The notes under the pieces were generated by a model that was not told the origin of the DNA, searched no databases, and was given only the letters and a program-made list of their open reading frames with translations. Shown here piece by piece: positions 21,896 to 44,497 of a DNA stretch of 64,000 nt; within the stretch, counting starts at the first letter, position 1; the number at the start of each line of letters is the position of its first letter. A program made the position numbers and the translations under genes. The stretch is from Squalus acanthias (lineage: Eukaryota): positions 36,830,001 through 36,894,000 of the forward strand of contig CM059432.1 of NCBI GenBank assembly GCA_030390025.1, written 5' to 3'.

Positions 21896-23225
21896 ATGTA
21901 AAGCATTAATCTCTTTTCAGGCACATTAGCCAACTTTATTTCTCCCCTTCAACCTCTCCAATGGATTAATATTCCATTTATCTACTAGGTTCACTTGCAC
22001 TGTCTAAATGTATCGTATTTAAATAATTTAATTTTTAAACTTTCAACATTATTTGCTTCCCAGTAATTCCAACACCAAATGGTAGAAGGATAGGACAGCA
22101 GCTGGTGGTAGTGAGCATGGAAAAATGAGGAAGGAAATTTTCTGGCAATGTTTGAACTGATGGAAATTGTTTGCAAGTCTATGTGCTTTTTACCACCCTA
22201 TGCAAATGTAGATTTTATGCATCACTGCCAGTTCTAACGTTTTGCATTAGCAAGATTCTACCATATATACAAATGCTGGTTCCCACTTCCAGCCATTGAG
22301 GTTAACCCAGGCAGCGTTCTGTTTATCAGTTTCATTTTTAAACTGAAGGAGAAAAATCCCACTCTTACATCCATGGTTTGGAGTTCCTCAAACTGGAAGT
22401 TAAGCTGTGTTTAGATTATGATTGTAGTCTCTGCATGGTACCTGCTCTGTTGATCAACACAGTGGAGGCTCTCCCGGACACAACTGTGATCCAGTGTTAC
22501 GGTGTGCATTGAAAAGCAGATTAATAGTGCTTGGATGGTGTAGAGTGTCGTGTTATAACACTGGCCCATTGTAGAGTCGAGTACGAGCCCCCACAAAGTT
22601 CTTGATCTCATCCCGTCCGGCTTGACGGCAGGGATGAGATCAAGTTAACCTGGTTGCTCTCAGAGTGAGAGTTGGCAGTAAGTCACCCTAGCATGCAAGG
22701 GAAATGTGCGCAATGCTGGGGAACAAAGAAAAGACAAGACAGGCACATACATACAGACACATATACAGATGCAGAGCAGCAAAGATGATTACAAAAATAA
22801 AAATACATGTAAATGGGAAGCAGTGAGGATAAACTGGAAAATTGCTGTTTATACAGCAGAAAATTGCATCACTCTCTCTCTCTCGAGCAGAGGAGGGTAC
22901 AATGAGAAAACTAGAACACAGTGCAGGAATTGGAGACATGAGCAGCACAGCATTGCATGCCCCACCAACCTAACGACAAACCACTTGAAAAAAAACTGAA
23001 ACAGGAAATTAAAACCCGGCTAGTTTAAGATGACTAGACAGAAGAAAATGGCACAACAAAATTATGTGCCAGTCTGCACAGTATGTTGTTCAAAGTTATC
23101 CTCTATTTTTACCTTGCAATATTCTGTTAAAAGTTAAAACCCAAAGGAAAAAAAAGTTTAAAAACATTACAAGCAGGCTATAACACAACCTGGGATAAGA
23201 ATGAACTGTTCACAAATTCTTTTTA

Positions 23226-23438
23226 ACAACAGAAAACGCTGGAAAAACTCAGCAGGCCAGGCAGCATCCGTGGAGAGAGAAACAGAGTTAACGTTTCAGG
23301 TCGAAGACCTTTCAGGACCTTTTGACCTGAAACATTAACTCTGTTTCTCTCTCCACGGATGCTGCCTGGCCTGCTGAGTTTTTCCAGCGTTTTCTGTTGT
23401 TATTTCGGATTTCCAGCACCCGCAGTATTTTGCTATCG
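23226..23438. mobile_element. PLE-derived fold-back element with 79-bp arms and a 15-bp TSD
   Basis: Arms 23224-23302 and 23324-23402 (one mismatch); TSD cacaaattcttttta at 23211-23225 and 23439-23453. Confidence 0.85.
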
Positions 23439-23713
23439 CACAAATTCTTTTTATTGGGTCAAAATTCTACTCCTGGTGTTTACCAGTAAAGATATTTCTA
23501 CAGAACGAGCATATTAAGTAATCATTAAGAATAAAAAAACCACACGGCAAGTATTTTCTTCCCTCTGAAAGTTACTCCACAGCAAGCATGACCTTGCTTC
23601 CATGCCCCTCGCACCCCCTTACTCTGCAACACATTCATTGGGAAGCATGCCCAAGTAACATAACTGAACGCTCCCATTAACACACTCAACCAGCAGGTAA
23701 GCATTACCTCTAA

Positions 23714-23821
23714 GAAAGGAAAGAAACAAAAAAAGAAAACAAAGAGAGAAAGAGAAAGAAAGAAAGGAGAAAGAAAGAGAAAGAAAGAGAAAGAAGAAAG
23801 AGAAAGAAAGAAAGAGAAAGA
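23714..23821. repeat. (GAAA/GAGAAA)n purine microsatellite, expanded SINE tail
   Basis: Near-pure A/G tract abutting the 3' end of the minus-strand DeuSINE. Confidence 0.9.
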
Positions 23822-24253
23822 AAGGACTTGTATTTATATAGCACTTTTCACGGCCACCGGACGTCCCAAAGTGCTTTTGAAGTGTAGTCACTGTGGTAAT
23901 GTAGGAAACATGACAGCCAATTTGCGCACAACAAGCTCCTACAAACAGCAAAGTGATAATGACCAGATAATCTGTTTTAGTGATGTTGATTGAGGAATAA
24001 ATATTGGCCAGCACACCGGGGATAACTCCCCTGCTCTTCTTCGAAATAGTGCCGTCGGATCTTCTCCGTCCAGACGGGGCCTCAGTTGAACGTCTCATCC
24101 GAAAGACAGCACCCTCCAAAAGTGCAGCACTCCCTCAGCACTGCATTGGAGTGTCAGCCTAGATTTTTGTGCTCAAGTCTCTGGAGTGGGACTTGAACCC
24201 ACAACCTTCTGACTCAGAGGTGAGTGCGCTACCCACTGAGCCACGGCTGACAC
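23822..24253 (-). mobile_element. DeuSINE, near full-length and young
   Basis: High reverse-complement identity to 47446-47905. Confidence 0.88.
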
Positions 24254-24606
24254 TCCAATCCAAGCAGCCTTACAGAAAGGGTACAATTTATGGGCTGCAT
24301 TCTTCAGCCCAGAGGTGTCTAAGCTACAGGTCGTGGGCTGTATAAGGCTCCCAAGCCTTGGCATTCTGGCCCAGACAACTTCACTTTCTACTGGTGCTTA
24401 TATTTCTTACTTGCTGGTTTGTCCTAATTGAATTTGATAACCCCAGAGGCTCAGAAGGGGCTGCTCTTAAGTGCCGCTGCCCATTAATGGATAAATCTTA
24501 AATCAGAACACCAAGATCTATTATCTGCAGCAATAGGCATGTAAATTAATAGGAACATTCCTATATGAGCCTATGAAGGTCCATGTTATGAACCTAAATG
24601 GCCCTT

Positions 24607-25215
24607 AAGAACATAATGTAAAAAATAGGAGCAGGAGTGGGCCATTCGAGCCTGCTACGCCATTAAACAAGATCATGACTGGTCTTCTACCTCAACTTCA
24701 CTTTCCTGCACTATCCCCATATCCCTTGATATCCAAAAATCTATCGATTTCTGTCTTGAATACACTCAATGACTGAGCATCCACCGCCCTCACAGGTAGA
24801 GAATTCCAAAGGCTCAGTGATTGAGTGAAGAATTTTCTCCTCATCTCAGTCCTAAATGGCCAACCCCTTATTCTGAGACGGTGACCCCAATTCTTGACTC
24901 CTCAGCCAAGGGGAACATTCTCCCAGCATCTACCCCGTCAAACCCCTTAAGAATTTTATATGTTGCAGTGAGATCACCTCTCATTCTTTTAAACGCTAGG
25001 GAATATAGACCTAGTCTACTCAATCTCTCCTCATAGGATAATCCCCTCATCCCAGAAATCAGTCTAGTGAACCTTTGTTGCACTCCCTCTATGGCAAGTA
25101 TATCCTTCCTTAGGTAAAGAAACCAAAACTGTACACAATACTCCAGGTGTGGTCTCACCAAGGCCCTATATAATTGCAATAAGACTTCTTAAATCTTATA
25201 CTCCAATCCCTTTGT
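24607..25215 (-). mobile_element. CR1 3' fragment
   Basis: LYRALVRPHLEYCVQFW, RMRGDL; CR1 tail. Confidence 0.88.
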
Positions 25216-25258
25216 AGAAGCTGAAGATAAAGACCTTGGATACTAGCACATGCAATGA

Positions 25259-25668
25259 AAGAAATTGCATTTACATAGTGCCTTCCACAACCTCAGTACG
25301 GCCCAAAGCACTTGACAGTGGAGTACAGTCACTGTTGCAATGTAGGAAACACAGCAGCCAATTTGTGCACAGCAAGGTCCCATAAATGACCAGATCATCC
25401 GTATTTTAGGTGTTGGTTGAGGGTTAAATATTGGACTGGACACTGGGAGTACTCCCATACTCTTCTTAAATAGTGCCATGGGATCTTTTATATTCATTCG
25501 AGAGGGCAGACGAGGCTTCGGTTTAATGTCTCATCCAAAAGACGCCATCTCAGACAGTGCAGCAATCCCTCAGCACTGTACTAAAGCACCAGCCTAGATT
25601 ATGTGATCAAGTCTTTGGATTGGGGCTTGAAACCACTAACTTCAGACTCAGACTACCACTGAGCCAAG
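25259..25668 (-). mobile_element. DeuSINE
   Basis: Reverse homology to 1349-1790. Confidence 0.8.
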
Positions 25669-26159
25669 ACTGTTGCAAGATGACACTATTAAAGTAATTG
25701 CAAAACTGAAAAAGCACTGCATGACTGAAGCACTGTGACGACAACCCAATCAAATTTCAATGCATTCTGGTGTTGCCTCCTCCACAACATAATTTTGCAG
25801 ATGAAGCCATACTTATTTTATATATGTGGGTTTTAAAAAAAATAGATTCACACATTGTGAAAAAAAGATCCAGAACCCACTGAACATGATTCCTAACCAA
25901 CGAAACGGCCAACATCATAACAAACTTCATAATAAAAACCTGTATATCAGCGGATATTTTATATGGGTTTTAATTCTACAAATGTGCCAGAGTGCAAAAA
26001 CATCAACAGCACTAGGCGCATAGAGCAGGAAAAAACACTTACAATTATGAATTTGCTTTGAAATGTTACAAACAAGTTGTAGAACTGGGCCATGGAAAAC
26101 AGTTTCTAATCCACAGTGAAGAACCTTACTAAACCCAAGAGTAAACACACACCAAGTCA

Positions 26160-26632
26160 GTCAACACCTGTGGAGAAATTATAGCATAACATTTCAGGTC
26201 GTCGGAGACATGGTCTTCACCTTTCGTTTTCCTCCTCGCACGCAGACTGACCTGTTGTCTATTTGCAACATTGTGCGTTTTTGTTTCAGATTTTCATTTT
26301 TTCTTTTTGACATGGCATCTTCACTCGGTATTCTCACCTCTGAGTCAGAGATTGGAGGTTCATGTCTCACTCCAGGCCTTCAGCAGATAATTTAGGCTGG
26401 CATTGTGCAGTATTGGAGGGGGGCTGCATTTATCCCCATGTCAAAGTCAATATTCGTACCTCAACCAACACAACCAAAAATTGGTCATTCATTTAAGTGC
26501 TATCTGTGGGACATTGCTTGCACAAAATGGCTGCACATTCACTTACATAACAAAAGTGGCTGCATTTCAAATAAATTTATTCTGTGTGAAATTCGTTCGA
26601 GAGCTTGAGACATGATGAGATGCATAAATCAG
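26160..26632 (+). mobile_element. Old PLE-derived remnant (26160-26300) followed by an old DeuSINE (26315-26632)
   Basis: acatttcaggtc, gactgacctg..atttgcaacatt; diverged SINE head, core and tail. Confidence 0.55.
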
Positions 26633-26847
26633 TTTTTTTTTTATGGTCACGTTTATTTCCAACACCAGATTTCTGATTGGTCACCTTGGAGGACAAGACA
26701 CACCCAGCAGTTTCTCTGGAATGTGTAATTAGATCCTGCCTGCCCAAGTAATCAATTACTTTGCAAAGTGTAATTCGAGCCATTCTGACTGACAAACTCC
26801 AGACAGAACAGAGCTTACTTAGAACAGACAGGGCTCAGCCTTGAGGG

Positions 26848-27085
26848 TCAAGACCTTCTCCCCCACCGGCCTGAGTTTCTGACCTTTGCCCTCCCCAACA
26901 AGTTCCTGACTCTGACCTTACCTCCACCCCACCCAAGTTCCTGACCTACTCCGCCTGTCCAAGTTCCTCCCCCCACACCAAGGTTCTTGGCCTTCTCCCC
27001 CTGCCCAAGTTCCTCCCCCGCCAATCCAACCCCTCGGGTTCCTGACCTTCTCCACGCAAGAAGTTCCTGACCTCCCCCACCCCAA
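26848..27085 (+). repeat. Degenerate C-rich minisatellite, core (A/G)AGTTCCTGACCT, period ~20-30 bp
   Basis: About 9 imperfect units, plus one more at 27427-27445. Confidence 0.75.
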
Positions 27086-27237
27086 TAGATGGGGTATTGT
27101 GTGTGGGTCACAGATTAGTAACAGGTTTATTCGGTATGAAGTGAATCGTCTTAGTGTCATGACTTCCGGATTTTATCCAGTCCAATGATGTCACTTGCCA
27201 CACACACCCCGAGCTTTCCAAGAAATCAACCAGGTCT

Positions 27238-27268
<31 letters not shown>

Positions 27269-27450
27269 GGAACCTAGTGCAGGTGTAAAGTGGGTGGGGT
27301 TGGAAGAACGTGATCGGTTTTACCATCTGGATCACATTCTTGCGCTCATTCCCCCCACCTTTAGTCCTGGATCACGTTCTTCCCCCATCTCATGTGCTCT
27401 CCGTGCTCTTTACCACCCCGCCCCCAGAGTTCCTGACCTCCCCTCCAATC

Positions 27451-28173
27451 CTGTAATGTGGTGACCAGAACTGCACGCAGTACTCAAGCTGTGGCCGAAC
27501 CAGTGTTGTATACAATTCTAGCATAACTTCCCATCTCTTATATTCTATGCCTCGGCTAATAAAGGAAAGCATTCCGTATGCCTTTTTAACTACTTTATCG
27601 ACCTGTCCTGCTACCTTTAAGGATCTGTGGACATACACTCCAAGGTCCCTCTATTCCTCCACACCTCTCAGTATCCTCCCATTAATTGTGTATTCCCTTG
27701 CCTTGTTGCCCCTCCCCAAATGCATTACCTCACACTTTTCTGGATTGAATTCCATTTGCTACTTTTCTGCCCAACTGTCCAGTTCATCGATATCTTCCTG
27801 CAGTCTAAAGCTTTCCTCCTCACTGTCAACCACACGGCCAATTTTTGTATCATCTGCAAATTTCTTTATCATGCCCCCTACATTTAAGTCTAAATCATTA
27901 ATATATACTACAAAAAGTAATGGACCGAGTACTGAGCCCTGTGAAACCCCACTGGAAACAGCCTTCCAGTCGCAAAAACTCCCCTCAACCATTCCCCTTT
28001 GCTTCCTGCCAGAGCCAATTTTGGATCCAGTTTGCCACTCTCCCTTAGATCCCATGGGCTTTTACTTTTTTGATCAGCCTGCCATGTGGGACCTTGCCAA
28101 AAGCCTTGCTAAAATCCACATAGACTACATCAAATGCACTGCCCTCATTGACCCGCCTCGTTACCACCTCAAA
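27451..28173 (-). mobile_element. CR1 RT internal fragment
   Basis: DFSKAFGKVPHGRL, GVSQGSVLGPLLF, KFADDTKIG, LVRPQLEYCVQFWSPHY. Confidence 0.9.
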
Positions 28174-29379
28174 GATCCCCTCACTCTCTCCCCCCCCTCC
28201 GATCCCCCCGCCGATCCCCTCGCGCCCCCCCCCCCCCCCCCCCCCCCCCCCGATTCCCTTGCTCTCTCTCCCCCCCCTCTCCAGGGCCACCAACGGATCC
28301 AATGACCTTCTGCTTACGGAGCTGAGGAAAGTGTGGCCCACGCTGCAGGCTGCAACTGTTGGGTACTGCGCATGCACGGCTTCGGTAAACAGCGCACATG
28401 TGCAGAAGGGGATCGGGTGCGCATGCACGGCTCCGGGATGCCGCTCGCATGCACAGAAGGCCGCAAAAGTGTTTGTGCAGATTATCACTGTTTTTTTAAA
28501 ATCTTTCCCTACTAAGCCCAGCGCAGTAAATTTCTAGTACAGTACATTAATGGGAAAACTGGCATGTCACTCAAACAACTCAACAATATCCTGCGCTGAT
28601 CACGAAACTGCAAATGATGCCAACCTACTCTTAAGTGAGGGTCAACGGTTGTTTTCTGGTTTAGCAGAGAGGGCACAGCCCAAGGCAATTTCTGATTTCC
28701 CCCCCCCACCGCCCTCCCTCAGCACCAGAAAGTTTAAAACCTCAGTTCTAACAACATGCTACATGTAGTTACACAAAGACAAACACTGTACAATGAACAG
28801 GGCTGTGACATTTCCAAAAAAAACAGATGAAGTTCCTGTACCCTTAAATTGATGTCATGAACAAAGGGTATAAATAACTGAGCCTTACTGTCACTTGGAT
28901 TTCAGAGTATCTAATGGTGATGTTCATCTGAACTATGAAAAACACCAGCTGCACAATTATATATGTTGTCTTCCAAACTTGGGTAGTGACTGGAAGGAAC
29001 ATTTTCCATGAAGTGCCACTGGTCACTGGTCCATCACCGGCGGTGGTTAGTATTATTTGAGGTGGCAAATAAAGATGATCAGACAAGGCGGCTATTTATT
29101 GCATTTCACACTGATGCTGGGACAGAGAGTGTTGCTCAAGCAGAGAACTGTGACCACCAAGCATTGCTCTCCCCTTTTCACCAAATCAGCATGCCACCTG
29201 TCTCTGTGGGAGAACCAATAGGACATCTGACAGTCACCCTCAAAATCCAGGAAAAAGATGCTGCTGATAGAACATCGAATGTGTCAGTATATATACACAC
29301 GCCACTTGGGCATGTTATCTGAATCCCCGCTCAGAGATCCTTGTGTACTCAATTAAACCCATATACTTAGCTTCAACTA

Positions 29380-29750
29380 AACATTACAAGATGACAAGAA
29401 AATTATGGATGAGCAAGGCCATTTGGCTCATTGTCTTAGTACATCGATTCACAAATACCCTACAGTTCCCCCCAACACCACATCCAATTGTTTCTTACAT
29501 GATTCCAGGGTTTGTGCCGCCACTATTGATCTGGGGTCCATTCCATACATTGATCACTCCGAAGAAGAATTTCCTGACATTAATCCTAAATTTGCCTTTC
29601 ACTAATTTGAACCTGTATTTCCTCGTCTTACTTTTGCAATTTAATTTAGTCATATTCCATATTTACATTTTCCACTCCCTTAACTATCTTACACACCTCT
29701 ACAAACGATCACCTCTCTGACACCTCTTTTCCAGGCTGAAAAGCCCACAA
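29380..29750 (-). mobile_element. Old CR1 3' fragment
   Basis: Degenerate CR1 3' coding region and tail. Confidence 0.55.
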
Positions 29751-30007: not shown

Positions 30008-30649
30008 TTTCTAATTTTCAAAACACAGTGAATCACAGTGAAACAAAAAAGAAACAGAACATTAATCTACGTTTTGTGATGGATTTCCTGTTTCTGTTCA
30101 CAAGGTATTGCAGAAAAATGAAATGGACTACGGTACAAAGATTTACAAACTAGCTTTTTATCTTCAGTCATAATGCTGTATTAAGGATAAACCTAACTGC
30201 TGATTTCATCTAATAGCGTATTGGTTAAATGCATTGTATGTTTTGATGCTGAGCTATATAAACAAGAACTAATTGAAACAGAATTTTTCCTGACAAACTA
30301 GGATGCATTTTTCACAGGATACTGAAAATACCAAGTTCAGAGTCTGTTACTATGTGTTGAGAATATATATGAATTATGTACATGCAGGAATAAAAAGAAA
30401 AAATGCGAAAGATAAACATGGTGCTGGAAATACACAATATTCGATATGAAAATTGATTAATTCTTTGGCTCAAATCATTCATCAGAACATATTCTCATGA
30501 TCCCACCTAAAACTACAACAATTTTCATTTATCTAGTGTCTATAACGGAGCAAAACATTTCATAGGCGTAATCAAAACAAAAGAAAGCTAAGCCGGGGGG
30601 GGCCCACAGGCCATGTTACAATAGTGGAAGTAGGCAGCCTTAATGATTA

Positions 30650-30690
30650 GGGGTTCTGATGAAAGGTCGTCAACCTGAAACGTCAACTCT
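30650..30690 (+). ncRNA. Minimal type-I hammerhead ribozyme motif
   Basis: ggggtt CTGATGA a aggt-cgtca-acct GAAA cGTC aactct: intact core, helices I and II, loopless helix III, GUC triplet. Confidence 0.65.
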
Positions 30691-30753
30691 GTTTCTCTCT
30701 CCACAGATGCTGCCTGACCTGCAGAGTATTTCCAACATTTCCTGTTTTTATTA
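30653..30753 (+). mobile_element. PLE-derived short element inserted in an old L2 remnant
   Basis: TSD ttaatgat(t/g)aggg at 30640-30652 and 30754-30766; body homologous to 23324-23402. Confidence 0.8.
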
Positions 30754-30959
30754 TTAATGATGAGGGCAATCTGGGTTGAATGGGACACTGAAGTTGCAAG
30801 TAGTCTGGTTCAGCCAGAGACAGTGGCTGGGGAGGGGGTGGAATCAGTAGCATGGAAATGGAATTTAGGGTTAAAGACTTTGGCTTTGGACTTCTCAATG
30901 TTTAGCTGCCGCTCTAATGAAGAGTCTCGCTGGAAACATTAGCTTATATTATGCCTTAA

Positions 30960-31140
30960 AAATGCAAAATACTATGAATGCTGGAAATCTGAAATATCAA
31001 TAGAAAATGCTGGAAATACTCAGCAGGTCAGGCATCATCCATGGAGAGTAAAACTGTTATCGTTTCAGGTCTGTGAGCTTTTGTCAGAACTGGAAAATGT
31101 TACAGATGTAAAGAGGTTTTAAGCAAGCACAGAGGCAGGG
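30960..31140 (-). mobile_element. PLE terminal-repeat fragment with degenerate hammerhead
   Basis: Homologous to 42042-42130; minus strand reads CTGACAA...GAAACGAT (G8 mutated). Confidence 0.7.
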
Positions 31141-31225
31141 AAGATGGTTGGGGGCAGGGGTGAAGATGGTTGAGGGCGGGGGGGGGGGTGAAGATGGTTG
31201 GGGTGGGGGTGGGGGGGGGGGAAGA
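31140..31225 (+). repeat. Three tandem GAAGATGGTTG + G-run units
   Basis: gaagatggttg three times, separated by G tracts. Confidence 0.8.
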
Positions 31226-31289
31226 CTTCAGTTACATCTTTCAAATGCTGAACTACTGTGCATTTTTAAAATTTAATACATTTGCACTC

Positions 31290-31720: not shown

Positions 31721-31849
31721 AAAACTCCACCAAAATCACAAATCTAAAAAAAGACTCATGTTTTAAATTGCACGGTTAGTGCATTCTCCATGAGGGGGAT
31801 TTTTTTTCAACCAGGATATCAGTATCAAGTGCAGATTGTTCTGCAACCA

Positions 31850-31988
31850 CAATACAAAAGCAAAATACTGCAGATGCTGGAAATCTGAAATAAAAACAGA
31901 AAATGCTGGAAATACTCAGCAGGTCAGGCAGCATCTGTGGAGAGAGATGCTACCTGACTTAAGTATTTCCAGCATTTTCTGTTTTTAT
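31850..31988. mobile_element. PLE-derived fold-back element
   Basis: Inverted arms; TSD ttgttct(g/t)caacca at 31836-31849 and 31989-32002. Confidence 0.8.
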
Positions 31989-32994
31989 TTGTTCTTCAAC
32001 CATTTCAGCTAAACTTCACTTCAGTGTCGGCAGAAGATTCAAAGTTATCACTGTTAAGGGAGTATTTCATATTTATTAATAGGAAGTCAGTGATTTTAAC
32101 TTTGCATTTGCCTGGAACGGTCACTTGAATTTTATCTGGAGGAAATCAACCCTAGAAAGGAATCAATGTAAATTTGGTTTAGACATGAACTAAACAGGGG
32201 GTGAAGTTAAATCAGAAAAAGAAGAAATACAGGAACAAAGTACTGGAGAGAACAATGAATGATCAGAGCCTGAGGAATCAACACACCATCACACATAATT
32301 TGAAAAGCTAACAAGTCCAGCTATGACAAATTTACTCAAAAACTTTTTCACTATAAACAAACTTCTGTCAAGATCCACTTGAAATGTGCAATGCTTAGTA
32401 GAAACTAAAAGCTCACTCGGACAACCCATCCTCAGAGCTGGTACAGTAATAAGGTACAACTGGATAAGATTTCACTTGTTTGAGCAAGGGGGGAAAAACA
32501 GAAAACTACATTCAAGATAGGAATTGCACAGAAAAAAGACCACGCTCCATCCAGTTTGTCTTCTAACATCCTGGTAGTCTCCATGATAATGGAGTTGCTG
32601 ACTTATCGTGGCAATCAATCTCTATCAATTAGTCTACAACAGACCCAGGCACAACACGTGGAAAAGTTTGGGAACCATCGGTCCAAAGTCACCTGTTCCT
32701 CCCAAGCATGCTACACTTAACACATCATGTTTCAAATTACTTATATACTGTATCCTAAATTTTATGAAAGAAATCTATCTAACAAGGCCTAAAAACATTT
32801 TTTTTATATGTATTTGCTCTTGAGATGTGGGCCTGAGAAAGTAGAGGTGTGACTTTTATAACTTGTTTTTTCCAATTGAGTGGCTTGCTTGGCCACTCCA
32901 GAGGCAACCATGTAACAAGAGACTGGAGTCACATGCAGGACAGGCTGGTTCCCTTTAATGAGCCAGATGTTTTTCTAACATCAGAAACAATTCA

Positions 32995-33125
32995 GTTCTG
33001 ATGAAGGCTCCATATCTGAATCGTTAGCTTGCCCATTCTCTCCATAGATGCTGCCTGACCTTCAGCGTTTCTTACACCTTCTGTTTTTGTTTCAGATATC
33101 CAGCATCTTGAGTATTTTGCTTTTT
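32995..33125 (+). mobile_element. Old PLE-derived element with degenerate hammerhead
   Basis: gttCTGATGAaggctccatatctGAATcgtt...agatgctgcctgacc. Confidence 0.65.
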
Positions 33126-34879
33126 TGTTCATTTGGGTTTTAACATCAATTTGCCTTGGTGAAGGGAGACTAATCCGGCAGTTTCATTGCTGATCACTTC
33201 CACTTTAAGTGCACGTATGCACTGCAGGCACCTGTTGAGGAATGGGTCAAGCTTGGCTGCATTTTCCTCCAGTCGGATATCCAATCAGCATTCTCTGCCC
33301 AGGCTCCCATGGATAATTGTTGCTTACAGGAGGTACTGGCTCACACTCCTGGAACTGCACCTTGTAAGGTAGTCAATACCTTCAGCAAGAAGTGAGGGGG
33401 GGGGGGGGGGACGCTGAAGCAAAAGATGGCCAAGACAGCAATTAAGGAGAGTTGGAAGAGGAAATATGCTAGGATTTTCACTCTTCATCACTGTCCCAGT
33501 GAATCCTATTGGAAGGTTCAATTATATGGATGACTGGTGAGATGAGGTTGAGGCTCACATGTGATAAATGGTCACTTGTGCAAGGAGCCAGAGGGTTTCT
33601 GTAATGTTGGCACAATGGCCCAGCAAGTGTCAATGCCTGAAAGAGGGGGAGAAACTTAGATGTTTGGGGGAAGGGCACAGAAGAGATGAAAAATAGTTCC
33701 TTGACCAAGTTAATACTGGAAAATTCAGTCCCGTAAGTTGTTCATTGAAGCTCTTAATGACCCATGAACCCTAGTGGGAGGGGATTTTGTGCACCAGAAT
33801 GTATCTTCCCACTCAGCATGAAAGTCACAGCTCCAGGTGCAGCTTTTACAACAGTGCAGCCTGTACGTTATTGTAAAAACAGAACAAAATACACACGTAC
33901 AAGGTAACTGGGTGGTACAATGGGTTTAAACAGTAACCCTTTACTTCTGAAATCTGGGCTCAAATCCAGCAGAGGCAGATTTCCTCACAGGAACAAGTTT
34001 GAAGCTATTTCAATTCAAGAAGGAGCAAACGGCACAAAGTAAACCAGAACGATTATGCATAACCGGGCAGTTCCATGATTGTTTATTACTGAAGAAGCAT
34101 CATCAACGGCACCCTCTAATAGCTGCATTAACAATTAAACCAGTGGGGACAAGGTCAGATTGGAGCTGCTGTTAGATCACCATTTGCTTGTCAAGGTGCA
34201 AATCTGGATTTCATTTTTTAAATATTTGTTCAATACACAGTGATGCTGGCAAGGATGCATTTAACGCCCATCTGTAGTCACTCGAAAAGATGAGCTTCCT
34301 TAGCAATTGAAAAGGATATTAGAAGTCAACCACCTAGTGAAGCAGTTGGGTTTTTACAATAATCTGGCAGCTTTTATAGTCATTTTTCCTAGTGCCAGCA
34401 CATATTTACCAGATTTCTTGAATTCAATTTCTCTTGGGTTATTCATTCAGTATGGTAACCACTGCGCTACTGTACCTGATAGCATCTGAATCAGGTTTGA
34501 AGAATTCACATCAGGATTTAACGACTTCACTTTTATGTCTGCAGCTAACTGATGCTGCAGTAACTCTCCATGACTAAAACTTAACCACACTTGTATTTTA
34601 TTTTGCTAGGTTTTTTTTTTAAAGTTCCTATTTTCACATCCACAGCCATGAAAATCATGGACATGCTAACAAAAGTCGGCGTTGACCTAGAGTCGGAGCA
34701 GGAAGAAAGTTCAATAGGGAACAGCTTTCAGCACCTCTCCCTTGGACCCCCAAGTAGAAAAAGGCAGTTACTTGCAGCTGCCACATGGATAACTGCTATG
34801 GAAAACCGAAATGTCTTACTAGTGCTCGATCTTCATTGAGCTTTGAGGAAAGGGGAGATGAATTGATCAGGCTATTCCA

Positions 34880-35785: not shown

Positions 35786-35905
35786 GTTCTGATGAAAGGT
35801 CATCGAACTTTGTTTCTCTTTCCACGGATGCTGCCTGACCTGCTGATTATTTCCAGCTTTTTGTGTTTATTTCGTATTTCCAGCATCCGCAGTATTTTGC
35901 TTTTG
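35786..35905 (+). mobile_element. PLE-derived element with the hammerhead 3' half deleted
   Basis: gttCTGATGAaaggtcatcga then deletion; ggatgctgcctgacctgctga...cagcatccgcagtattttgc. Confidence 0.75.
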
Positions 35906-36599
35906 TGTTGTCCCTAATTGACAGATGGGACAAACCAGCTGGCTGATAATAGTGTTGCGTGGATGGAAAAGGAAAATATCCCCAAGCCTTGTACCCTTAT
36001 AAGCTGACGGAGAACAGAAGAAATCCACAGCAGCCAGATCGGGGCCGTCTCCCCAGCACTGTGTGAACTAAAGAACAGTTGACTGGCAATTTTTTGTCCA
36101 GGAGTTTGGAGACATGCTTCTTAAACCACCAACTCTCACGACTACTGAGACCGTCAGTACTTTTCCCAAGCATTCTACAGCTCAAAATGTTCTCTCCAGA
36201 CACAACCCAAGTTTAAAAGGGTGTTTTCTGCTGCACAAGTGAACATGGAGTGAAAATGTCACACTCCATTCGCAGCTCTTCTGTGAAAGACGCAGCCCAT
36301 GCCAGCCTACAACGGGGCCTGGAAAACATTTAAGCTTGGGCTGCCTACTAGGTAGCAGGTAACATTCATGTTAAAGAAAGGCCAACCACCAACTTTCAAA
36401 GGCTCCACTTTCACCAACGCAGTTACCAACATCTTAAGAGTCACCATTGACCAGAAATTTGACTGTACCAACCAGGTCAACACCCTGATTGCAAGAGCAG
36501 GGTAGAGACTGGGTGCTCTGGGACAAGTGGCTCATATGGAAATGATGCATAGCAGAGGAAGTCTGAAGATGGAGAAAAAATTAATACATATTGAAGAAA

Positions 36600-37460
36600 A
36601 ACCAACTGCAAATAAGGTGGGACATAAAGTTATTGTCTGAGATTTAGGACTGAAATCAGGAAGCACCTTTTCATGCAACGGTTAGTCGTATGGGTACGGT
36701 AGCATAATGGTTAAGTTACTGGACTTATAATCCAGAGAAGGTGAATTCAAATCCCACCATGGTTTGAGAATTTGAATTCAGTTTAAAATTAAAAGCTGGT
36801 ATCAGTAATCCTGACCATGCAACTGTCAGATTGTCATAAAACCCAAGCATTTCACTGAAACAAAAGTAAAATATTGCGGGTGCTGAAAATCTTTAATAAA
36901 AGCAGAAAATGCTGAAAATACTCCTGAGTTAACCTGAAACGTTAACTCGGTTTCTCTCTCCACAGATGCTGCCTGACCTGAGTATTCCCAGAATTTTTTT
37001 TTTTAATTCCATTCCAACTCTTTCAATAATGTACTTCAGTGCCATCCTTATCCGGTTGGCCTATTTGTGACTCCAGTCCCACAACAACATGGTTGACTCT
37101 TAACTGCCCTGTGTAGTACCCTAGCAAGCCACTCAGTTGTATCAAATCGCTACAATACAGTGATTCAAGAAGGTGACCCACTAGAAATGGACAATAAATG
37201 CCAACTTTTCCACTGAAGTCCTCTCCAAAGAATGAATTTAATAAAAACTGGCAATCCCGCCCCCCCCCCCCCCCACCCCGCCCCAACAAAAGGTTGTGGA
37301 TGATGGCTCAATTGAAATTTCAAGACCAAGATCAATAGATTTTTGTTAGGTAAGGGTATCAAGAGATCTGGAGCAAAGGCGGGTAAATGGAGTTGAGGTA
37401 CAGATCAGCCATGATCTAACTGAATGGCGGCACAGGCTCGAGGGGCCTACTTCTGTTCCG
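36600..37460 (+). mobile_element. Nested cluster: CR1 3' end interrupted by a SINE (36690-37240), itself interrupted by a PLE fold-back (36858-37005)
   Basis: CR1 reads through 36600-36690 and 37290-37460; SINE head ggttcaaatcccaccatgg-like with Crack-like tail; cctgaaacgttaactc PLE motif. Confidence 0.65.
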
Positions 37461-37604
37461 ATCGTGAGGAAAGACAGCAAACCCAGAGAGTCCCAGCTTG
37501 ATTGAAACATACTTTTTTCAGCCAATCTATAGGACAGCTAAACTAAGCCAGTAAGGTGGACTGGAAACAAGTTTCAGAGTATATTTGGACTTTGTTCACA
37601 CAAT

Positions 37605-39583
37605 GATTGGCCAGAAAAAGCAGTAACCCTGAGGATTGGGAGCAGTTTAAGATTCAACAAAGGAGGTCAAAGGAATTAATTAAGAAGGGGAAAATAGAAT
37701 ACGAGAGTAAGCTTGCAGGGAACATAAAAACTGACTGTAAAAGCTTTTATAGATATGTGGAGAGAAAAAGGTTAGTGAAATCAAACATAGGTCCCTTGCA
37801 GTCAGAATCAGGGGAACTTATAATGGGGAACAAAGAAATGTCAGACCAATTAAATGCATATTTTGGTTCTGTCTTCACAAAGGAGAACACAAATAACCTC
37901 CTAGAGATGTTGGGGAACACAGGGTCTGATGAAAGGGAGGAACTGAACGAAATCAGTATTTGTAGGGAAATGGTGTTAGGGAAATTGACGGGATTGAAGG
38001 CCAATAAATCCCCAGGGCCTGATAATATACATCCTAGGGTACTTAAGGAAGTGGCCCTAGGAATAGTAGATGCATTGCTGGTCATCTTCCAACATTCGAT
38101 GGAATCTAGAACAGTACCCATGGATTGGAGGGTAGCTAATGTTACCCCACTATTCAAAAAGGGTGGTCGAGAGAAAACGGGGAATTACAGACCGGTAAGC
38201 CTGACATCGGTAGTGGGGAAAATGCTAGAGTCCATTATAAAAGATGTAATAGCTGAGCACTTGGAAAACAGTGACAGGATCAGACAAAGTCAACATGGAT
38301 TTACAAAAGGTAAATCATGCTTGACTAATCTCCTGGAATTTTTTGAGGATGTAACTGGTAAAATAGATAAGGGAGAACCAGTGGATGTGGTGTATTTGGA
38401 ATTCCAAAAGGCTTTTGATAAGGTCCCGCATAAGAGATTAGCATGTAAAGTTAAGGCACATGGGATTGGGGGCAAGGTATTGACTTGGATAGAGAACTGG
38501 TTGGCAGACAGAAAGCAAAGAGTTGGAACAAATGGGTCTTTTTCCGAGTGGCAGGCAGTGACTAGTGGGGTACCGCAGGGATCGGTCCTTGGACCCCAGC
38601 TATTCACAATATATATTAATGATCTAGACAAGGGAACTCGATGTAATATCTCCAAGTTTGCAGACGACACAAAACTGGGTGGGCGTGTGCGCTGCGAGGA
38701 GGATGGCGAGAAACTTCAGGATGATTTGGACAGGTTGGGTGATTGGGCAGAAGCGTGGCAGATGCAATATAACGTGGATAAATGCGAGGTTATCCACTTT
38801 GGTGTCAAAAACAGAAAGGCAGATTATCTGAATGGCAATAGATTGGGAGAAGGGGAAGCGTAACAAGACCTGGGTGTCCTTGTGCACCAGTCGCTGAAGG
38901 TAAGCATGCAGGTGCAGCAGGCGGTTAAGAAGGCAAATGGTATGTTGGCCATCATAGCGAGGGTTTGAGTACAGGAACAAGGATGTCTTGCTGCAGTTGT
39001 ACAGGGCCTTGGTGAGACCACACCTTGAGTAGTGTGTGCAGTTTTGGTCGCCTTATCTGAGGAAGGATGTTCTTGCCATGGAAGGAGTTCAGCGAAGATT
39101 CACAAGGCTGATACCTGGGATGGCAGGAATGACATATGGAGAGAGATTGGGTCGATTGGGCTTATACGCGTTGGAGTTTAGAAGAATGAGAGGGGATCTC
39201 ATTGAAACTTATAAAATTCTGACAGGACAGGACAGGACAAACTAGATGCAGGAAGGATGTTCCCGATGGTCGGGGAGTTCAGAACCAGGGGTCACAGTCT
39301 AAGGATAAGGGGTAAGCCATTTAGGACAGAAATTAGGAGGAATTTCTTCACCCAGAGAGTGGTGAACCTGTGGAATTCTCTGCCACAGAAGGCAGTAGAG
39401 GCCAATTCATTAAATAGATTCAAGAAGGAGTTGGATATATTTCTTAAGGCTAAAGGGATATGGGGAGACAGCAGGGACAGGGTACTGAATTTGGATGATC
39501 AGCCATGATCGCATTGAATGGCGGAGCAGGCTAGAGGGGCCGAATGGCCTACTCCTGCTCCTATCTTCTATGATTCTATGATT
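37605..39583 (+). mobile_element. CR1 LINE, 5'-truncated (RT + 3'UTR)
   Basis: RT motifs and 3' tail (attctatg)n. Confidence 0.93.
37607..38863 (+). pseudogene. 418-codon uninterrupted CR1 ORF2 segment containing the RT domain (no endonuclease, premature stop)
   Basis: KSPGPD, NYRPVSLTS, QHGF, YLEFQKAFDKVPH, GVPQGSVLGP, KFADDTKLGG; further lesions downstream. Confidence 0.9.
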
Positions 39584-40109
39584 GAGTTTGCTCCACAGTT
39601 CTAATTAATGTATGGGAACATACCCTGGAGCACTAAACAATTCCTGGCTCATTTTTCTAGAGTCTGGTCATGGAAAGTCATCTTTAAAATACGAACTCTT
39701 GGAGGGAAAAGTGGTTATTTTCTCTTAAAATTTCCCATTCCGCAACTTCCGCGGCTGTGACCCTATGTTAAGGGGTTTAAAGAAATATTCTTGGACACTG
39801 CGCCCACAAAATTCCTTCTAATTGGGTATGGGGAGAGGAAGGAAAGTCTACCTGATAAATGGACTTAAATTTAGTAACCTCTGCTGGAAGTGAACATGCG
39901 CACATCAGAGAAGGATAGGATGGACTCAACTCATTCAGATATCGCACTAGCACTCAATGTCAAGGATCATAAACCAAATAATGGGCAAGAAACCAGAGGG
40001 CAGCCACTGATTCATACATCAGTAAGGAGACAATTATTTTCGGAGGGGAGGGAAGGGGCGGGGCAAAAAATTGGTACAGGAAAATTTAAGAAGCAATACC
40101 TAATGAATT

Positions 40110-40640
40110 TCCATAACAGCTCTCACTTATATCAGTGCTATTAGCACAAGGAAATAGCCCACGGTGTTTCACAAAGTGGGCATCAGATTTAAGGAGGCGG
40201 GGGGAGAAGAGTTGAGAGGTGACAGAAGGGGTAGTGAAAGTAGGTTTTACAGTTTTTGAAGATGGAGAGTGATGCAACAAGGCAGAGGGGGTTGGCAGGA
40301 GAATTCTGCAATAGTGGGGAAAGATGGTATAAGGGACTGTCACAAGGGTGGGTTGTAGGCAGGGGCAGCATATACAGAAGAACATAGTTGAAAGAAAGGA
40401 GGATGAAAACAGGGATTTAGGGTTGGAAATGGTTAGAATCATAGCTTTTACAGTGCAGAAGGAAGCCATTCAGCCCACCTATCTGAAGGAGCTGTCCCCT
40501 TAATCCCATTCCCCTGCCTTTGCCTCATATCCTTAATTTTTTTTCTTTTTCGAATATTATCCACTTCTCTTTTAAAAGCCTTCATAGATTCTGCTTCCAT
40601 CACTATTTCTGGCCGAGCATTCCACGTCCCAATAACCCTT
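40110..40640 (-). mobile_element. Old L2 3' remnant (40110-40430) and old CR1 tail (40433-40640)
   Basis: Degenerate L2 3' end; tagaatcatag...aggaagccattcagccc CR1 tail. Confidence 0.55.
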
Positions 40641-40671
40641 GGAGTTATAACATTTTTTTTTTGCCTAACGA

Positions 40672-41045
40672 ATAAGGGGCTGCTCTTTCAAAACTGAGAT
40701 GAGAAGGAACTACTTCACTCAGCTACATCATTACATAAATTTAAAACAGAAATAGACAGTTTCCTAGAAGTAAAGGGAATTAAGGGTTACGGTGAGCGGG
40801 CAGGAATTTGGACATGAGTCTCGGTTCGGATCGGTCATGGCCCGGTGGGTAGCGCAGCTGGCCCAGGGGCGCTGTAGCCTGATCCTGCTCCTATTTCGTG
40901 TGTCCAATTCTGTTAGGTTCAGGAGATGGTTCTGTGATCGTAGATTGGTGGTTAGGATCAGATCAGCCATGATCTTATTGAATGGCGGAGCAGGCTCGAG
41001 GGGCCAATTGGCCTGCTCCTGCTCCTATTTCTTATGTTCTTATGT
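40672..41045 (+). mobile_element. CR1 3' fragment with duplicated terminal unit
   Basis: FKTEMRRN, FKTEIDSFLEVKGIKGYGE; same subfamily as 51951-52531. Confidence 0.85.
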
Positions 41046-41129
41046 CTACCTTTGTTCTTTTGGTGATCTTAAATTTATACCCTCGAGGTACAATGGAGCA
41101 AAACAATTAAGGAGCTCGTAATTGAGGAT

Positions 41130-41370
41130 AACATTTTTGAAATTAACACATTGGGTAAGGGAAGCTAACAGACGTGAGCAAGAAGAGTGAAGCAGGAATT
41201 AGTGCAGGATAGGAAGCGGGCATACAAGGTGAGCTTGGCAGACTGGTGAGGAGAGCGGTAGAGAGGTTAAGCCTGGCGGTGGGCAAAGTGCCGATCAGAG
41301 TTTCAGCAACAATAGGGGTGAGGTAGAGACGGGCGATATTTCGCAGGTGGAAGTTAACAGTTTCGATGAG
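41130..41370 (-). mobile_element. Old L2 fragment
   Basis: FHLRNIARL...AETLI. Confidence 0.7.
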
Positions 41371-42041
41371 CAGCACCAGCTAACAACCTCCCACCTATGC
41401 AAAAGGACAGCATGTTTGCACTGTTGTTCTGTGCATTTCTCAGTCTTGTACAGTATACATACCGCACTTAGAGGATCAAAGCCAGAGACATGAAGTGCCA
41501 CAAACCCACCATAAACCGATTCAGAAAAACCAAACACTTCTTGGCAATAATGAAGCAATCCTGACACACTGCCAAAGTCTGCACTCAAACAGGAAAACAA
41601 AAAGCCATTTGCAAATAAGGTTTTGCTTTCAAATTGACTCCATGTGGGATTGAGGGGGTAATCACATTATTTAAATTATAGCCATAAATTTCAACCTCTT
41701 TCAGATCCAAAGTGTAAATTGAATTTAAGATTGATTGTTAATGCGAAAATAATTATTGCTAAGTGCACAAACCTCAATTTTATTTACTCTTGGAGGAGGA
41801 GGAAGGCTAGACTCAACTGGAAAACTCCATGGAAGATTTGTATACTTAAAAAGTACTGATATAGACAAGACACATTGCTGCAACCAACTAGGTTAGCGAC
41901 TGAACCAACTGGTAAAACTGGAGGATGAGTAATCGTTGGCTGCTCTCATGCACGGAGAAGCTGGTGAACGAGCACTGGCAGAGGTTGACTGTTTATCCAG
42001 CTTTGGAATTTCACAGGCAATTAACAAGTGATTTAAAAAGT

Positions 42042-42202
42042 ACAAAAGCAGAATACTGCAAATGCTGGAAAACTGAAATAAAAACAGAAAATGCTGGAAA
42101 TACTCAGCAGGTCAGGCAGCATCTGTGGAAAGAGAAACACAGATCGATCTCTCCACAGATGCTGCCTGACCTGCTGAGTATTTCCAGCATTTTCTGTTTT
42201 TA
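42042..42202. mobile_element. PLE-derived fold-back element with perfect 51-bp arms
   Basis: Arms 42079-42129 and 42152-42202; imperfect flanking duplication atttaaaa(a)gtacaaa(a)gc at 42031-42049 and 42203-42219. Confidence 0.82.
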
Positions 42203-43391
42203 ATTTAAAAGTACAAAGCTTCAAAATCCAATTCCAAAGTGCTGTAACTCCTGGTTTGGGTTTTCTGCCTCGGTGACATCAGGACAAATGAGACCAGCAA
42301 AAGACGTTGGCCTTTTTTTGGGTCTGAATTCTGTCCGCATTTCTTCGGACGGTGGTGGCTCATGCTGGGGTACAGTTCTATAGCCGTCAGTTACTCCTTG
42401 CTGCCAACAGTAAGTGCCCATTCTTCACACGCAACCCTGAACAGCAAGTGTTGGAAGATTATTCAGCTGTAGGATGCATGACATCCAAGCCTATTTGTGG
42501 TCTTATCACACATCTAGCACAAAACAGTATACAGAAGAAATGCGTATCAAAGTAACAGAGTATGTTATAGTACAGTGCATTTCTTCACTGCTGCAGTCAC
42601 TTGATGCCATATCCTTTGGGTACTGGCATCACCACTTCTATTTTCTTTTCAAATCAAGTCAGTGCCAATATCACACAATTATGCAACACAAAAATTATTT
42701 TTAAAAACATCAGTAATCCAGCAACAAGTCCTTTCAGCAGTTTCAGCAGAGAGAGTTGGGAGATGAAACATTTCCCTACAAGGAGTCATTGCAGCAGAAC
42801 CCATTGTGGATAAAAATTTGAAGCAAAGGAACATATTAGACTACAGGGAGATAGCAGAGCAGTGGAATGAGTTTGCAATTGCTCTAGCAGTGGTACAGAT
42901 GTGATGGGCTGAATGGCTTTCTAGTGTGCTGTAAACCTCTCTAGTTCTGTTATTGTCCATGAAAGAATACATCCTGGTTCATCATCAATTCCAACTGCCT
43001 TACTGAATTGGTCAAGGGGGCGTAAGGACAATCCTAGTAACTACAGGCCACCACTACAGTTTATCAGTGGTGGGTAAAGTTTTAGAAACAATAATCAAGA
43101 AAAAAATTAACGGGCACTTGGAGAGGTTTAAGCTAATTAAGGAGAGCCAACACGGATTTGTAAAAAGCAGATCGTGTTTGACTAATCTAACTGAATTTTT
43201 TGATGGAAGTAACAGAGAGGATTGATAAAGGGAATGCAATAGATGTTGTCTACTTGGATTTTAAGAAGGCGTTTGACAAAGTACCACATAGAAGGCTGCT
43301 TAACAAAATTGAGGCTCACTGAATAGGTGGGTCAGTGGCAGCTTCGATAAGGAATTGGCTTAAGGACAGAAAACAGCAAGTTGTGGTAAAT

Positions 43392-43509
43392 AACAGAAAA
43401 CGCTGGAAAAACTCAGCAGGCGAGGCAGCATCCGTGGAGAGAAAACAGAGTTAACGTTTCAGGTCGAGACCTTTCGTCAGAACCCATCTGCAGTATTTTG
43501 CTATCGTCG
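43392..43509 (-). mobile_element. PLE-derived element inserted in CR1 with a perfect 14-bp TSD
   Basis: TSD aagttgtggtaaat at 43378-43391 and 43510-43523. Confidence 0.88.
43448..43485 (-). ncRNA. Minimal type-I hammerhead ribozyme motif
   Basis: Minus strand: gggtt CTGACGA a aggtc-tc-gacct GAAA cGTT aactc. Confidence 0.65.
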
Positions 43510-44497
43510 AAGTTGTGGTAAATGGCTGTTTTTCAGACTGGAGGATGGTAGACAGTGGTGTTCCCCAAGGGTCAGTGCTGGGGCCACTGCTTTTTTTGAT
43601 ATATACAAATGACTTGGATATTGGAATACAGAGTAGAATTTCTAAATTTGCCACTGACACCAAACTTGGGGGTGTGGCAAACAGTGATGATACCAATCGA
43701 CTGCAACAGGACATAGAAAGGCTAGCAGAATGGGCAGACAAGTGGCAGATGGAATTTAATACAGAGAAGTGTAAGGTGATTCATTTTGGCAGAAGGAACA
43801 GGGAGAGGCAATAAACACTTATTGGCACAGTTGTAACGAGTGTGCAGGGACAGAGGGACCTGGGAGTTAATGTGCATAGGTCCCTGAAGGTGGCAGGACA
43901 TATTGAGAGTGGTTAACAAAGCATATAGGATCTTGAGCTTCATAAATAGAGGTATTGCGTACAAAAGTAGAGAAGTTATGGGGAAAGGCTGTTCCCACTA
44001 GTTGATGGTAGAAGGACTAGGGGACACAGATTTAAGGTTTTGGGCAAGAGATATAGGGGGATATGAGGAAAAACTTTTTTACGCAGCGAGTGGAGAGGAC
44101 CTGGAATTCGTTGCCGACAGAAGTGGTGGAAGCGGAGACACTCAATGTTTTCAAGGGGAGACTGGATAGGCACTTGAGGGAAATAAACTTGCAGGGCTAT
44201 GGGAATAGAGCAGGGGGAATGGGACTGACTGGATTGCTCTACAGAGAGCCGGCACGGACTTGATGTGCCGAATGGCCTCCTTCTGTGCCGTTATGACTCT
44301 AGTATATAATTACTTAAGACCTAGCTTGTCACTGGGTTTATTTAGTGCATTCACAGCAATATGCGGGGTGGGGGGGGGAAATTCCACTGAAACCACCAGT
44401 ATTTAATGTTGTGCAGTACAGCTATCCCCTACCCTTGCATTAATACCTCAAATTGTTTATATCACCATAACCAGTAAACACGACAACCACACCCCAG

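What the first reader, a model, noticed from the sequence alone, without database searches (positions are those of the whole stretch)
23211..43523. Family of short Penelope-derived elements, often fold-back, mobilised with 13-15 bp TSDs
Seen: at least 9 related copies (23226, 30653, 30960, 31850, 32995, 35786, 36858, 42042, 43392), each 100-210 bp. Several are palindromic with differing centres and five have flanking duplications, so the short units were inserted as such rather than eroded from long elements. No PLE ORF is present in the window. Established: PLE terminal repeats carry hammerheads and often show inverted 5' structures. Inference: a non-autonomous, retrozyme-like ribozyme/retroelement system. 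This is the best candidate for an under-described system here, although PLE hammerheads themselves are known.
Basis: partly seen in the sequence, partly recalled or inferred. Interest (0 to 1): 0.7.

Follow-up and report, generated by a model that had tools for sequence, protein, structure and literature searches.

The report
Twin-primed stubs of a Penelope retrotransposon
These 100-280-base repeats are real short insertions, often mirror-image, that are likely leftover end-pieces of a known kind of jumping gene (Penelope-like) rather than a new self-spreading ribozyme element, and their shared end points likely record where its copying enzyme starts and where its RNA begins.

Summary
In detail: 9 of 9 copies are present, 5 have 13-16 bp target duplications, and no Penelope (PLE) ORF lies in the window. 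All copies derive from one ~135-nt unit with a minimal hammerhead motif, intact in only 2 of 9. In all 5 two-arm copies, one outer end is the full 3' end and the other stops at unit position 98-101. That matches the published PLE layout of an inverted terminal repeat plus a 30-40-bp tail, which marks two reverse-transcription start sites. Three arms start exactly at the hammerhead's first base, none at its predicted cut site. One copy runs on into shared upstream sequence. No head-to-tail arrays occur and no architecture repeats, so the retrozyme reading is not supported. Likely mechanism: both nicked target strands prime cDNA on PLE RNA, copying often runs off the RNA's 5' end, and the two products are joined. 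The protein-coding partner was not found here (no genome held). This scan has reported the same stubs on other DNA (28 findings, at least 8 genomes). Known kind; modest mechanistic interest.

The parts
23211..23453 (.). Youngest palindromic copy: 15-bp TSD (23211-23225 / 23439-23453). Antisense arm, unit 98 to 8 (23226-23314); stuttered junction at the helix II hairpin; sense arm from ~17-20 to the tail end (to 23438). Arms 97% identical. Neither arm holds a complete hammerhead.
26133..26297 (.).
30640..30766 (+). Single tail-less arm, unit 1-100 (30653-30753), in a 13-bp TSD with 1 mismatch; intact minimal hammerhead, core at 30656, predicted cleavage after 30684
30957..31235 (-). Longer copy: tail plus unit (30957-31090) continuing into upstream sequence, multi-copy to at least ~31145 in public contigs. 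TTAAAA at -32 to -27 and an initiator-like motif at the unit start. Outer end (~31235) uncertain, in a G-rich tandem repeat. No TSD; hammerhead core mutated.
31836..32002 (.). Palindromic copy, 14-bp TSD with 1 mismatch; tail-bearing arm from the tail end to unit 42, tail-less arm ~53-101, joined over a 3-nt microhomology; no hammerhead sequence left
32990..33127 (+). Old single-arm copy with tail, start near unit -3 to 1 (fuzzy), degenerate hammerhead, no significant TSD
35786..35905 (+). Single-arm copy from unit 1 to the tail end, 12-nt deletion through the hammerhead core; 8-bp TSD candidate not significant
36858..37003 (.). Diverged inverted copy: tail-bearing arm 135 to 72 (possibly to ~30 before a later deletion), tail-less arm 21 to ~100 (fuzzy, T run); no significant TSD
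42031..42217 (.). Palindromic copy, 15/16-bp TSD with one indel (42031-42046 / 42203-42217); tail-bearing arm 136 to 35, tail-less arm 44-101; arms 98% identical
43378..43523 (.). Inverted non-overlapping copy inside a CR1-like RT fragment, 14-bp exact TSD (43378-43391 / 43510-43523). Antisense arm 98 to 1 with an intact minimal hammerhead on the minus strand (core 43480); one extra C at the junction (a G before unit position 1); then sense tail from ~114.

Best explanation
These insertions are short pieces of one ~135-base hammerhead-motif unit that is likely the terminal repeat of a protein-coding Penelope-like retrotransposon, likely laid down as dead-end products when its enzyme copies only the front of its own RNA, often from both cut DNA strands at once. 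Steps: (1) a staggered cut 13-16 bp apart in mostly AT-rich DNA (TSDs shown; the GIY-YIG nuclease is inferred from PLE biology). (2) cDNA starts at one of two fixed RNA sites, about unit position 135 or about 100 (end clustering shown; reading them as RT start sites follows PMC11167929). (3) If only one strand primes, a single arm results; when copying runs to the RNA's capped 5' end it stops at unit position 1 (stop shown in 3 arms; cap/TSS inferred). Priming in the downstream repeat of a full transcript gives longer 5'-truncated copies such as 30960 (inferred). (4) If both strands prime, one at each site, the two cDNAs are joined head-to-head through short microhomology, giving a tail on one side only (geometry shown in 5 of 5; two-sided priming inferred). 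The hammerhead is likely a passenger in the inserted copies.
For: Tail-less outer ends lie at 98, 100, 101, 101, 98; chance for 5 ends within 4-6 nt of ~100 positions is 1e-5 to 6e-5. The 35-nt offset to the full end matches the published 30-40-bp PLE tail, shown in vitro to lie between two RT start sites, with both target strands cut and extended. In 3 of 5 inverted copies (23226, 36858, 43392) the tail-less arm reaches further 5' than the tail-bearing arm, which snap-back of one tail-primed cDNA cannot give. 43392 has non-overlapping arms, and 3 contigs of run X8 show further non-overlapping arm-to-tail joints at other points (sides only 21-23 letters). Three of 14 arm 5' ends fall at exactly position 1 (chance 0.005-0.018). 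An initiator-like motif sits there with a loose TATA-like hexamer at -32 to -27 (both together at 0.25% of window positions, post hoc), and no variant at 20% or more is listed over that hexamer in public contigs. Upstream sequence is shared: loose ends past position 1 begin with the same letters as 30960 in 3 runs, and the upstream bins carry ~8e4 summed depth in X8 and X12. The family is very abundant: 17,569 contigs laid in X8 and 9,009 in X12. Minimal hammerhead anatomy (4-5 bp helix I, one bulged base before helix II, palindromic positions around helix III) agrees with PMC4209133.
Against: The autonomous partner was not found here: no genome is held; peptide searches gave no longer PLE protein; 6 of 6 collection scans gave 0 matches. 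PLE identity therefore rests on architecture, the hammerhead motif and unchecked notes on the same genome. Only 9-10 copies were measured. Four of 5 inverted copies have overlapping arms, which needs strand displacement or two RNAs, neither shown; the non-overlap in 43392 could also be a later deletion of one palindrome arm. The start at position 1 has weak statistics. Loose ends there in X8 (102 contigs, agreement 0.41) show many copies run at least ~8 nt further. The initiator motif would put the start one base upstream of the observed edge, and the same spot reads as a splice acceptor. The cap-G rests on one clear case (43392). Contig depth is not a copy number.
Confidence: 0.63

Rival explanations
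1. Same PLE end-pieces, but the inverted forms arise by self-priming or snap-back of one strand (PMC3846280 proposes self-priming on an antisense template) with endonuclease resolution at the tail boundary. The fixed 5' edge reflects a splice acceptor or RT stalling, not the cap.
For: Arm 5' ends lie within ~10 nt of each other in 3, possibly 4, of 5 inverted copies, as a short fold-back loop would give. Junctions use local inverted microhomology. In D. virilis the intron ends at the 5' edge of helix I, and the upstream of 30960 is pyrimidine-rich and ends in CAG. PMC8557442 attributes the tail to EN-mediated resolution.
Against: In 3 of 5 the tail-less arm holds sequence absent from the tail-bearing arm. 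Copies starting at position 1 share no upstream exon sequence. A structural stall would be expected at the 3' side of the hammerhead (~36), not after passing through it (inference).
Confidence: 0.2
2. A true non-autonomous, SINE-like family: solo 1-135 units are transcribed from their own loci and re-copied in trans by the PLE protein, so stubs beget stubs.
For: Eight of 9 copies lack the upstream body. 5' ends favour one position. PLE terminal repeats can act in trans, RT initiation is internal, putatively non-autonomous PLE derivatives exist in Chlamys, and the family is very abundant.
Against: No architecture repeats among the copies. The TATA-like element lies upstream of the stub and is lost from it. 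Two sequence subfamilies occur with the same mixed architectures, as successive autonomous masters would give. Seven of 9 lack an intact hammerhead.
Confidence: 0.12
3. A non-LTR retrozyme: tandem hammerhead repeats that self-cleave to monomers, circularise and reinsert.
For: Type I hammerhead motif; TSDs longer than 4 bp; retrozymes are reported as pLTR derivatives in one chondrichthyan genome.
Against: No head-to-tail array in the window. No permuted tail-to-start junction among 9 copies, 0 of 14 arm starts at the cleavage site. Motif is of the minimal, not the canonical, type.
Confidence: 0.04
4. A DNA-transposon MITE with terminal inverted repeats.
For: Short, non-coding, hairpin-forming (up to -159 kcal/mol), with TSDs.
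Against: The extreme ends are not inverted repeats (3-7 of 15 matches in 5 of 5 copies). The inversion centre and length vary. A copy with no inversion also has a TSD (30653). TSD length varies from 13 to 16.
Confidence: 0.01

Closest known systems
Insertion units of endonuclease-positive Penelope-like elements: pLTR, adjacent inverted 5'-truncated copy, optional 30-40-bp tail (Pen2a_Av, PMC3846280, parts 1-4 of 5 read; PMC8557442, 12 passages read)
   Same: Head-to-head inverted arms, tail on one side only, TSD, solo terminal repeats, heavy 5' truncation
   Different: Here 8 of 9 inserts are terminal repeat only (100-213 bp); TSDs are 13-16 bp against 8-10 bp in the Adineta examples; several copies share one 5' edge
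Poseidon_Ac (PAc) of Anolis, in vitro (PMC11167929, parts 1-2 of 4 read)
   Same: Two RT start sites bounding the tail, both target strands cut and extended, AT-rich targets, hammerhead cleavage not needed for insertion
   Different: PAc starts in an AC-rich stem-loop 111-118 nt into its ORF; here the inner site is a U-rich stretch at ~100. The paper's read parts do not explain inverted arms or a fixed 5' edge. No protein was linked here.
Minimal type I hammerheads of metazoan PLEs (PMC4209133, parts 1-2 of 4 read)
   Same: Conserved core, bulged base before helix II, short helix I, palindromic helix III positions, mostly single dispersed motifs, some pairs on opposite strands
   Different: Helix II is only 4-5 bp here against 7-8 bp in Schistosoma; activity untested
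Non-LTR retrozymes (PMC7229834, 12 passages read; bioRxiv 10.64898/2026.07.22.740005, parts 1-3 of 5 read, supplements not seen)
   Same: Non-coding, type I hammerhead, related to PLE terminal repeats, long TSDs, dispersed monomers
   Different: Defined by head-to-tail repeats with two or more complete ribozymes and monomer circles; none seen here, and ends follow the tail boundary, not the cleavage site
L1 twin priming (recalled; PMC12016303 seen in a search listing only)
   Same: Inverted 5' arm plus sense 3' arm inside one TSD, microhomology joins
   Different: Second priming site is fixed here (~100), and arms often overlap by 30-80 nt

Membership tests
EN+ Penelope-like element (terminal fragment) | Linked to an ORF with PLE RT and GIY-YIG endonuclease | tested here: inconclusive
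   None in the window; peptide and DNA searches blank or uninformative; no genome. Unchecked notes report such elements in this genome, family match not verified.
EN+ Penelope-like element (terminal fragment) | Optional 30-40-bp tail at one end | tested here: met
   Outer ends at 98-101 or ~131-139
EN+ Penelope-like element (terminal fragment) | Adjacent inverted 5'-truncated copy | tested here: met
   5 of 9 copies, head-to-head
EN+ Penelope-like element (terminal fragment) | Hammerhead motif in the terminal repeat | tested here: met
   2 intact descriptor hits against 0.04 in shuffles; below Rfam detection
EN+ Penelope-like element (terminal fragment) | Target-site duplication | tested here: met
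   5 of 10 copies, one with an empty sister site
EN+ Penelope-like element (terminal fragment) | Unit is the end of a longer repeated element | tested here: met
   30960 plus shared upstream sequence in public contigs, followed for ~55 nt only
EN+ Penelope-like element (terminal fragment) | Clade (Poseidon, Neptune, other) by RT phylogeny | not testable with these tools
   No RT sequence obtained
Non-LTR retrozyme | Head-to-tail tandem units with two or more complete hammerheads | tested here: not met
   None within this 64-kb window; rest of genome not testable
Non-LTR retrozyme | Monomer bounded by the self-cleavage site | tested here: not met
   0 of 14 arm 5' ends at position 33
Non-LTR retrozyme | Linear and circular monomer RNAs; self-cleavage | not testable with these tools
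   Only contigs of guessed RNA runs were laid; they cannot show ends, strand or level
MITE | Terminal inverted repeats at both extreme ends | tested here: not met
   3-7 of 15 matches in 5 of 5 copies
MITE | Fixed TSD length and uniform element length | tested here: not met
   TSD 13-16 bp, element 101-213 bp

The most novel reading that the evidence does not exclude
The 135-nt unit is a complete minimal retro-parasite: it starts at the RNA cap site, carries both internal RT start sites, and solo copies are themselves transcribed and re-copied in trans, giving a dispersed, SINE-like Penelope dependant whose two-sided priming generates hairpin insertions and hairpin RNAs.
Probability: 0.12. Interest if true: 0.6.

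Novelty: new member of a known kind. Interest (0 to 1): 0.27.

Why it matters
How PLEs make their inverted repeats and one-sided tails is stated as unresolved in PMC8557442 and PMC11167929. These stubs hold both ends and the junction in under 220 bp, so they are cheap records of each insertion. If the reading is right, the inverted repeat comes from priming both target strands at the two known start sites, and the hammerhead sits at the very front of the transcript. Both are directly testable with the existing PAc in vitro assay and with CAGE. My paper searches showed no listing that states this model, but they cover open-licence papers only. The element class, tail, inverted arm and ribozyme are all published, and this scan has already noted the same stubs many times, so the window adds little by itself.

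Tried and rejected
Whole genome: not held, so no genome-wide table. Pattern scans found 0 matches in viral contigs, metagenome contigs and prokaryote genomes; these collections are not expected to hold this host, so the blanks say nothing about absence. Rfam: 9 sub-threshold hits, 5 on these hairpins, none a hammerhead. An open frame runs through the unit, so two window translations were searched for longer proteins: 3 and 10 candidates, none significant. The representative library gave 3 hits: one unrelated repeat protein of 2574 aa (rejected as a chance match) and two short translations of similar repeats (71 and 176 aa). The idea that this frame is the PLE N-terminus is unsupported: between the two subfamilies it shows 0 synonymous and 8 non-synonymous codon changes. 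Raw-read run X21 gave only 4 reads, from a diverged relative, so no read-level end statistics. RNA-guess contigs hold the unit but do not show expression. Sequence and nearby look-ups in earlier findings returned nothing. TSD candidates of 8 bp at 32995 and 35786 were rejected as within chance. The nhmmer E-values for the listed copies are inflated because the profile was built from them, and were not used as evidence.
Full report
Observation. All 9 listed copies are present, and BLAST adds an older relative at about 26135-26300. After orienting every arm to the strand that carries the hammerhead core, they align to one unit of about 135 nt. I number it from the G three bases before the core. 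Two sequence subfamilies are visible: 23226 and 43392 are 95% alike, and 31850 and 42042 are 92-100% alike. Five of 10 copies have target duplications beyond chance (13-16 bp, null from 5000 random pairs). For 43392 a sister LINE fragment at 11502-11675 carries the target once, so the duplication arose at insertion. No GIY-YIG family was hit by 232 of 232 frames of 70 aa or more. The host is likely a cartilaginous fish; this is recalled resemblance plus unchecked notes, not a call result.

Anatomy. Arm limits on the ruler (refined by reading the junctions) are: 23226, antisense 98 to 8 plus sense ~17 to end; 30653, 1-100; 30960, end to beyond -55; 31850, end to 42 plus ~53-101; 32995, about -3 to 133; 35786, 1 to end with a 12-nt core deletion; 36858, 135 to 72 plus 21 to ~100; 42042, 136 to 35 plus 44-101; 43392, 98 to 1 plus ~114 to end. 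Three regularities follow. First, every outer end is either the full end (~131-139) or 98-101; the five sharp tail-less ends have a chance of 1e-5 to 6e-5. Second, all 5 two-arm copies are head-to-head, with the tail on one side only. Third, 3 of 14 inner or 5' ends sit exactly at position 1 (chance 0.005-0.018), while none sits at the predicted cleavage site after position 32.

Hammerhead. Rfam does not call it. A minimal descriptor finds two intact motifs, in 30653 and 43392, against 0.04 in shuffles. They have a 4-5-bp helix II behind one bulged base, a palindromic helix III stub and a short helix I, as described for PLE minimal hammerheads, which are thought to act as dimers and cleave weakly (PMC4209133, parts 1-2 of 4). 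Seven of 9 copies have lost or damaged the core, and the four overlapping palindromes hold no complete motif. The isolated motif's lowest-energy fold is not the hammerhead fold. Activity is untested.

Related sequence. Twenty of 24 listed public runs from 10 studies hold part of the 23226 stretch. Laying contigs on 30960 gave 17,569 contigs in X8 and 9,009 in X12 (55% of that run read). Coverage ends at the tail, where 250 X8 contigs run on into unlike sequence (agreement 0.41). It continues upstream of position 1 at lower summed depth (672,000 at 31082-31089; about 84,000 at 31114-31129). These sums are not copy numbers, but the upstream part is clearly repeated. Loose ends past position 1 of 43392 begin with the same letters as 30960's upstream in X8, X15 and X19. 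So the unit is the end of a longer repeated element. I could follow it for only ~55 nt and could not reach an ORF. Three X8 contigs show other non-overlapping arm-to-tail joints (short sides).

Mechanism. PMC3846280 (parts 1-4 of 5) and PMC8557442 (passages) describe PLE inserts with an adjacent inverted, 5'-truncated terminal repeat and an optional 30-40-bp tail. PMC11167929 (parts 1-2 of 4) shows that a Poseidon protein cuts and extends both target strands, starts reverse transcription at two internal sites that bound the tail, and does not need hammerhead cleavage. The simplest joint reading is that each nicked strand primes at one of the two sites and the two cDNAs are joined by short microhomology. 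This two-sided step is inferred. It is favoured over snap-back of one cDNA because in 3 of 5 copies the tail-less arm holds sequence missing from the tail-bearing arm. Against it, 4 of 5 copies have overlapping arms, often ending within ~10 nt of each other, which needs displacement or two RNAs, and 43392 could be a palindrome that later lost part of an arm. For the fixed 5' edge I favour run-off at the capped RNA start. 30960 has an initiator-like motif there and a loose TATA-like hexamer at -32 to -27 (0.25% of positions, post hoc; lead taken from note e1-8586887), and 43392 has one extra G-equivalent at the junction (copying of the cap as G is recalled from L1). The same spot also reads as a splice acceptor, and D. 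virilis Penelope has an intron ending at helix I (promoter passages of PMC2377424). Many public copies also run several bases past position 1. This step is therefore the weakest.

Comparison and membership. It works like an ordinary EN+ PLE insertion cut down to its terminal repeat. Five structural features were met (tail, inverted arm, hammerhead motif, TSD, longer parent); the link to an RT/GIY-YIG ORF is inconclusive here, so membership is likely, not shown. It fails the retrozyme tests that the window allows: no tandem array and no cleavage-bounded monomer, using the definitions in PMC7229834 (passages) and bioRxiv 10.64898/2026.07.22.740005 (parts 1-3 of 5; supplements not seen, and they may list this family). 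It fails the MITE test. A dispersed non-autonomous family is not excluded, but no architecture repeats and the stubs lack the putative TATA element.

Earlier notes. My reading before the look-ups was truncated PLE ends. Word and place look-ups then showed 28 findings in at least 8 genomes with the same verdict, and same-genome notes of ORF-bearing PLEs, two-sided priming and cap run-off. These are unchecked AI notes, used as leads only; I could not confirm that they concern this family.

Verdict. A real, correctly observed cluster of short insertions of a known kind. The retrozyme interpretation is not supported. The remaining value is as a compact record of an unresolved insertion mechanism. 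Interest 0.27; new member of a known kind.

Noticed in passing
window 23211-43523: All 10 clear copies fall in 20.3 of 64 kb (uniform chance about 2e-4, post hoc); unexplained. Counting the weak copy at 54750 would weaken this.
   Followed up: partly
window 54744-54950: Very old relative: weak antisense arm and, ~70 bp on, a near-complete minimal hammerhead core at 54912 whose helix II differs on both sides yet still pairs; helix I only 2 bp.
   Followed up: partly
loose ends, run X21: A diverged relative in another organism has a different but still pairing helix II, suggesting selection on the fold in parent elements (3 reads).
   Followed up: no
unit positions ~88-113 (e.g. window 31877-31905, minus strand): Pyrimidine tract ending in CAG, like a splice acceptor, right at the inner priming site; changed to CGG in the 23226 subfamily; an 11-nt motif is repeated on both sides of it.
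   Followed up: partly
window 35803-35804 and 42137-42148: 35786 has a 12-nt deletion ending at the predicted cleavage site; the 42042 junction can be read as a different 12-nt deletion over the same core. One X8 contig inverts at position 33. Could be chance.
   Followed up: no
window 37607-39560, 9780-12557, 43000-43990: CR1-like LINE fragments with RVT_1 and endonuclease hits; the longest open frame is 418 aa; family name recalled.
   Followed up: no
window 58296-60207: Broken hAT-like transposase (402-aa frame plus further pieces, weak hAT dimerisation hit).
   Followed up: no
window 23820-24240, 25260-25670, 36690-37200: tRNA-related SINE-like repeats (weak tRNA hits at 36699 and 47461); copy 36858 lies inside one such repeat.
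   Followed up: no
window 23000-23085, 29090-29280, 34645-34830, 36000-36200, 55860-56170: Exon-like stretches with splice-like edges and no convincing Pfam hit; host gene not identified.
   Followed up: no
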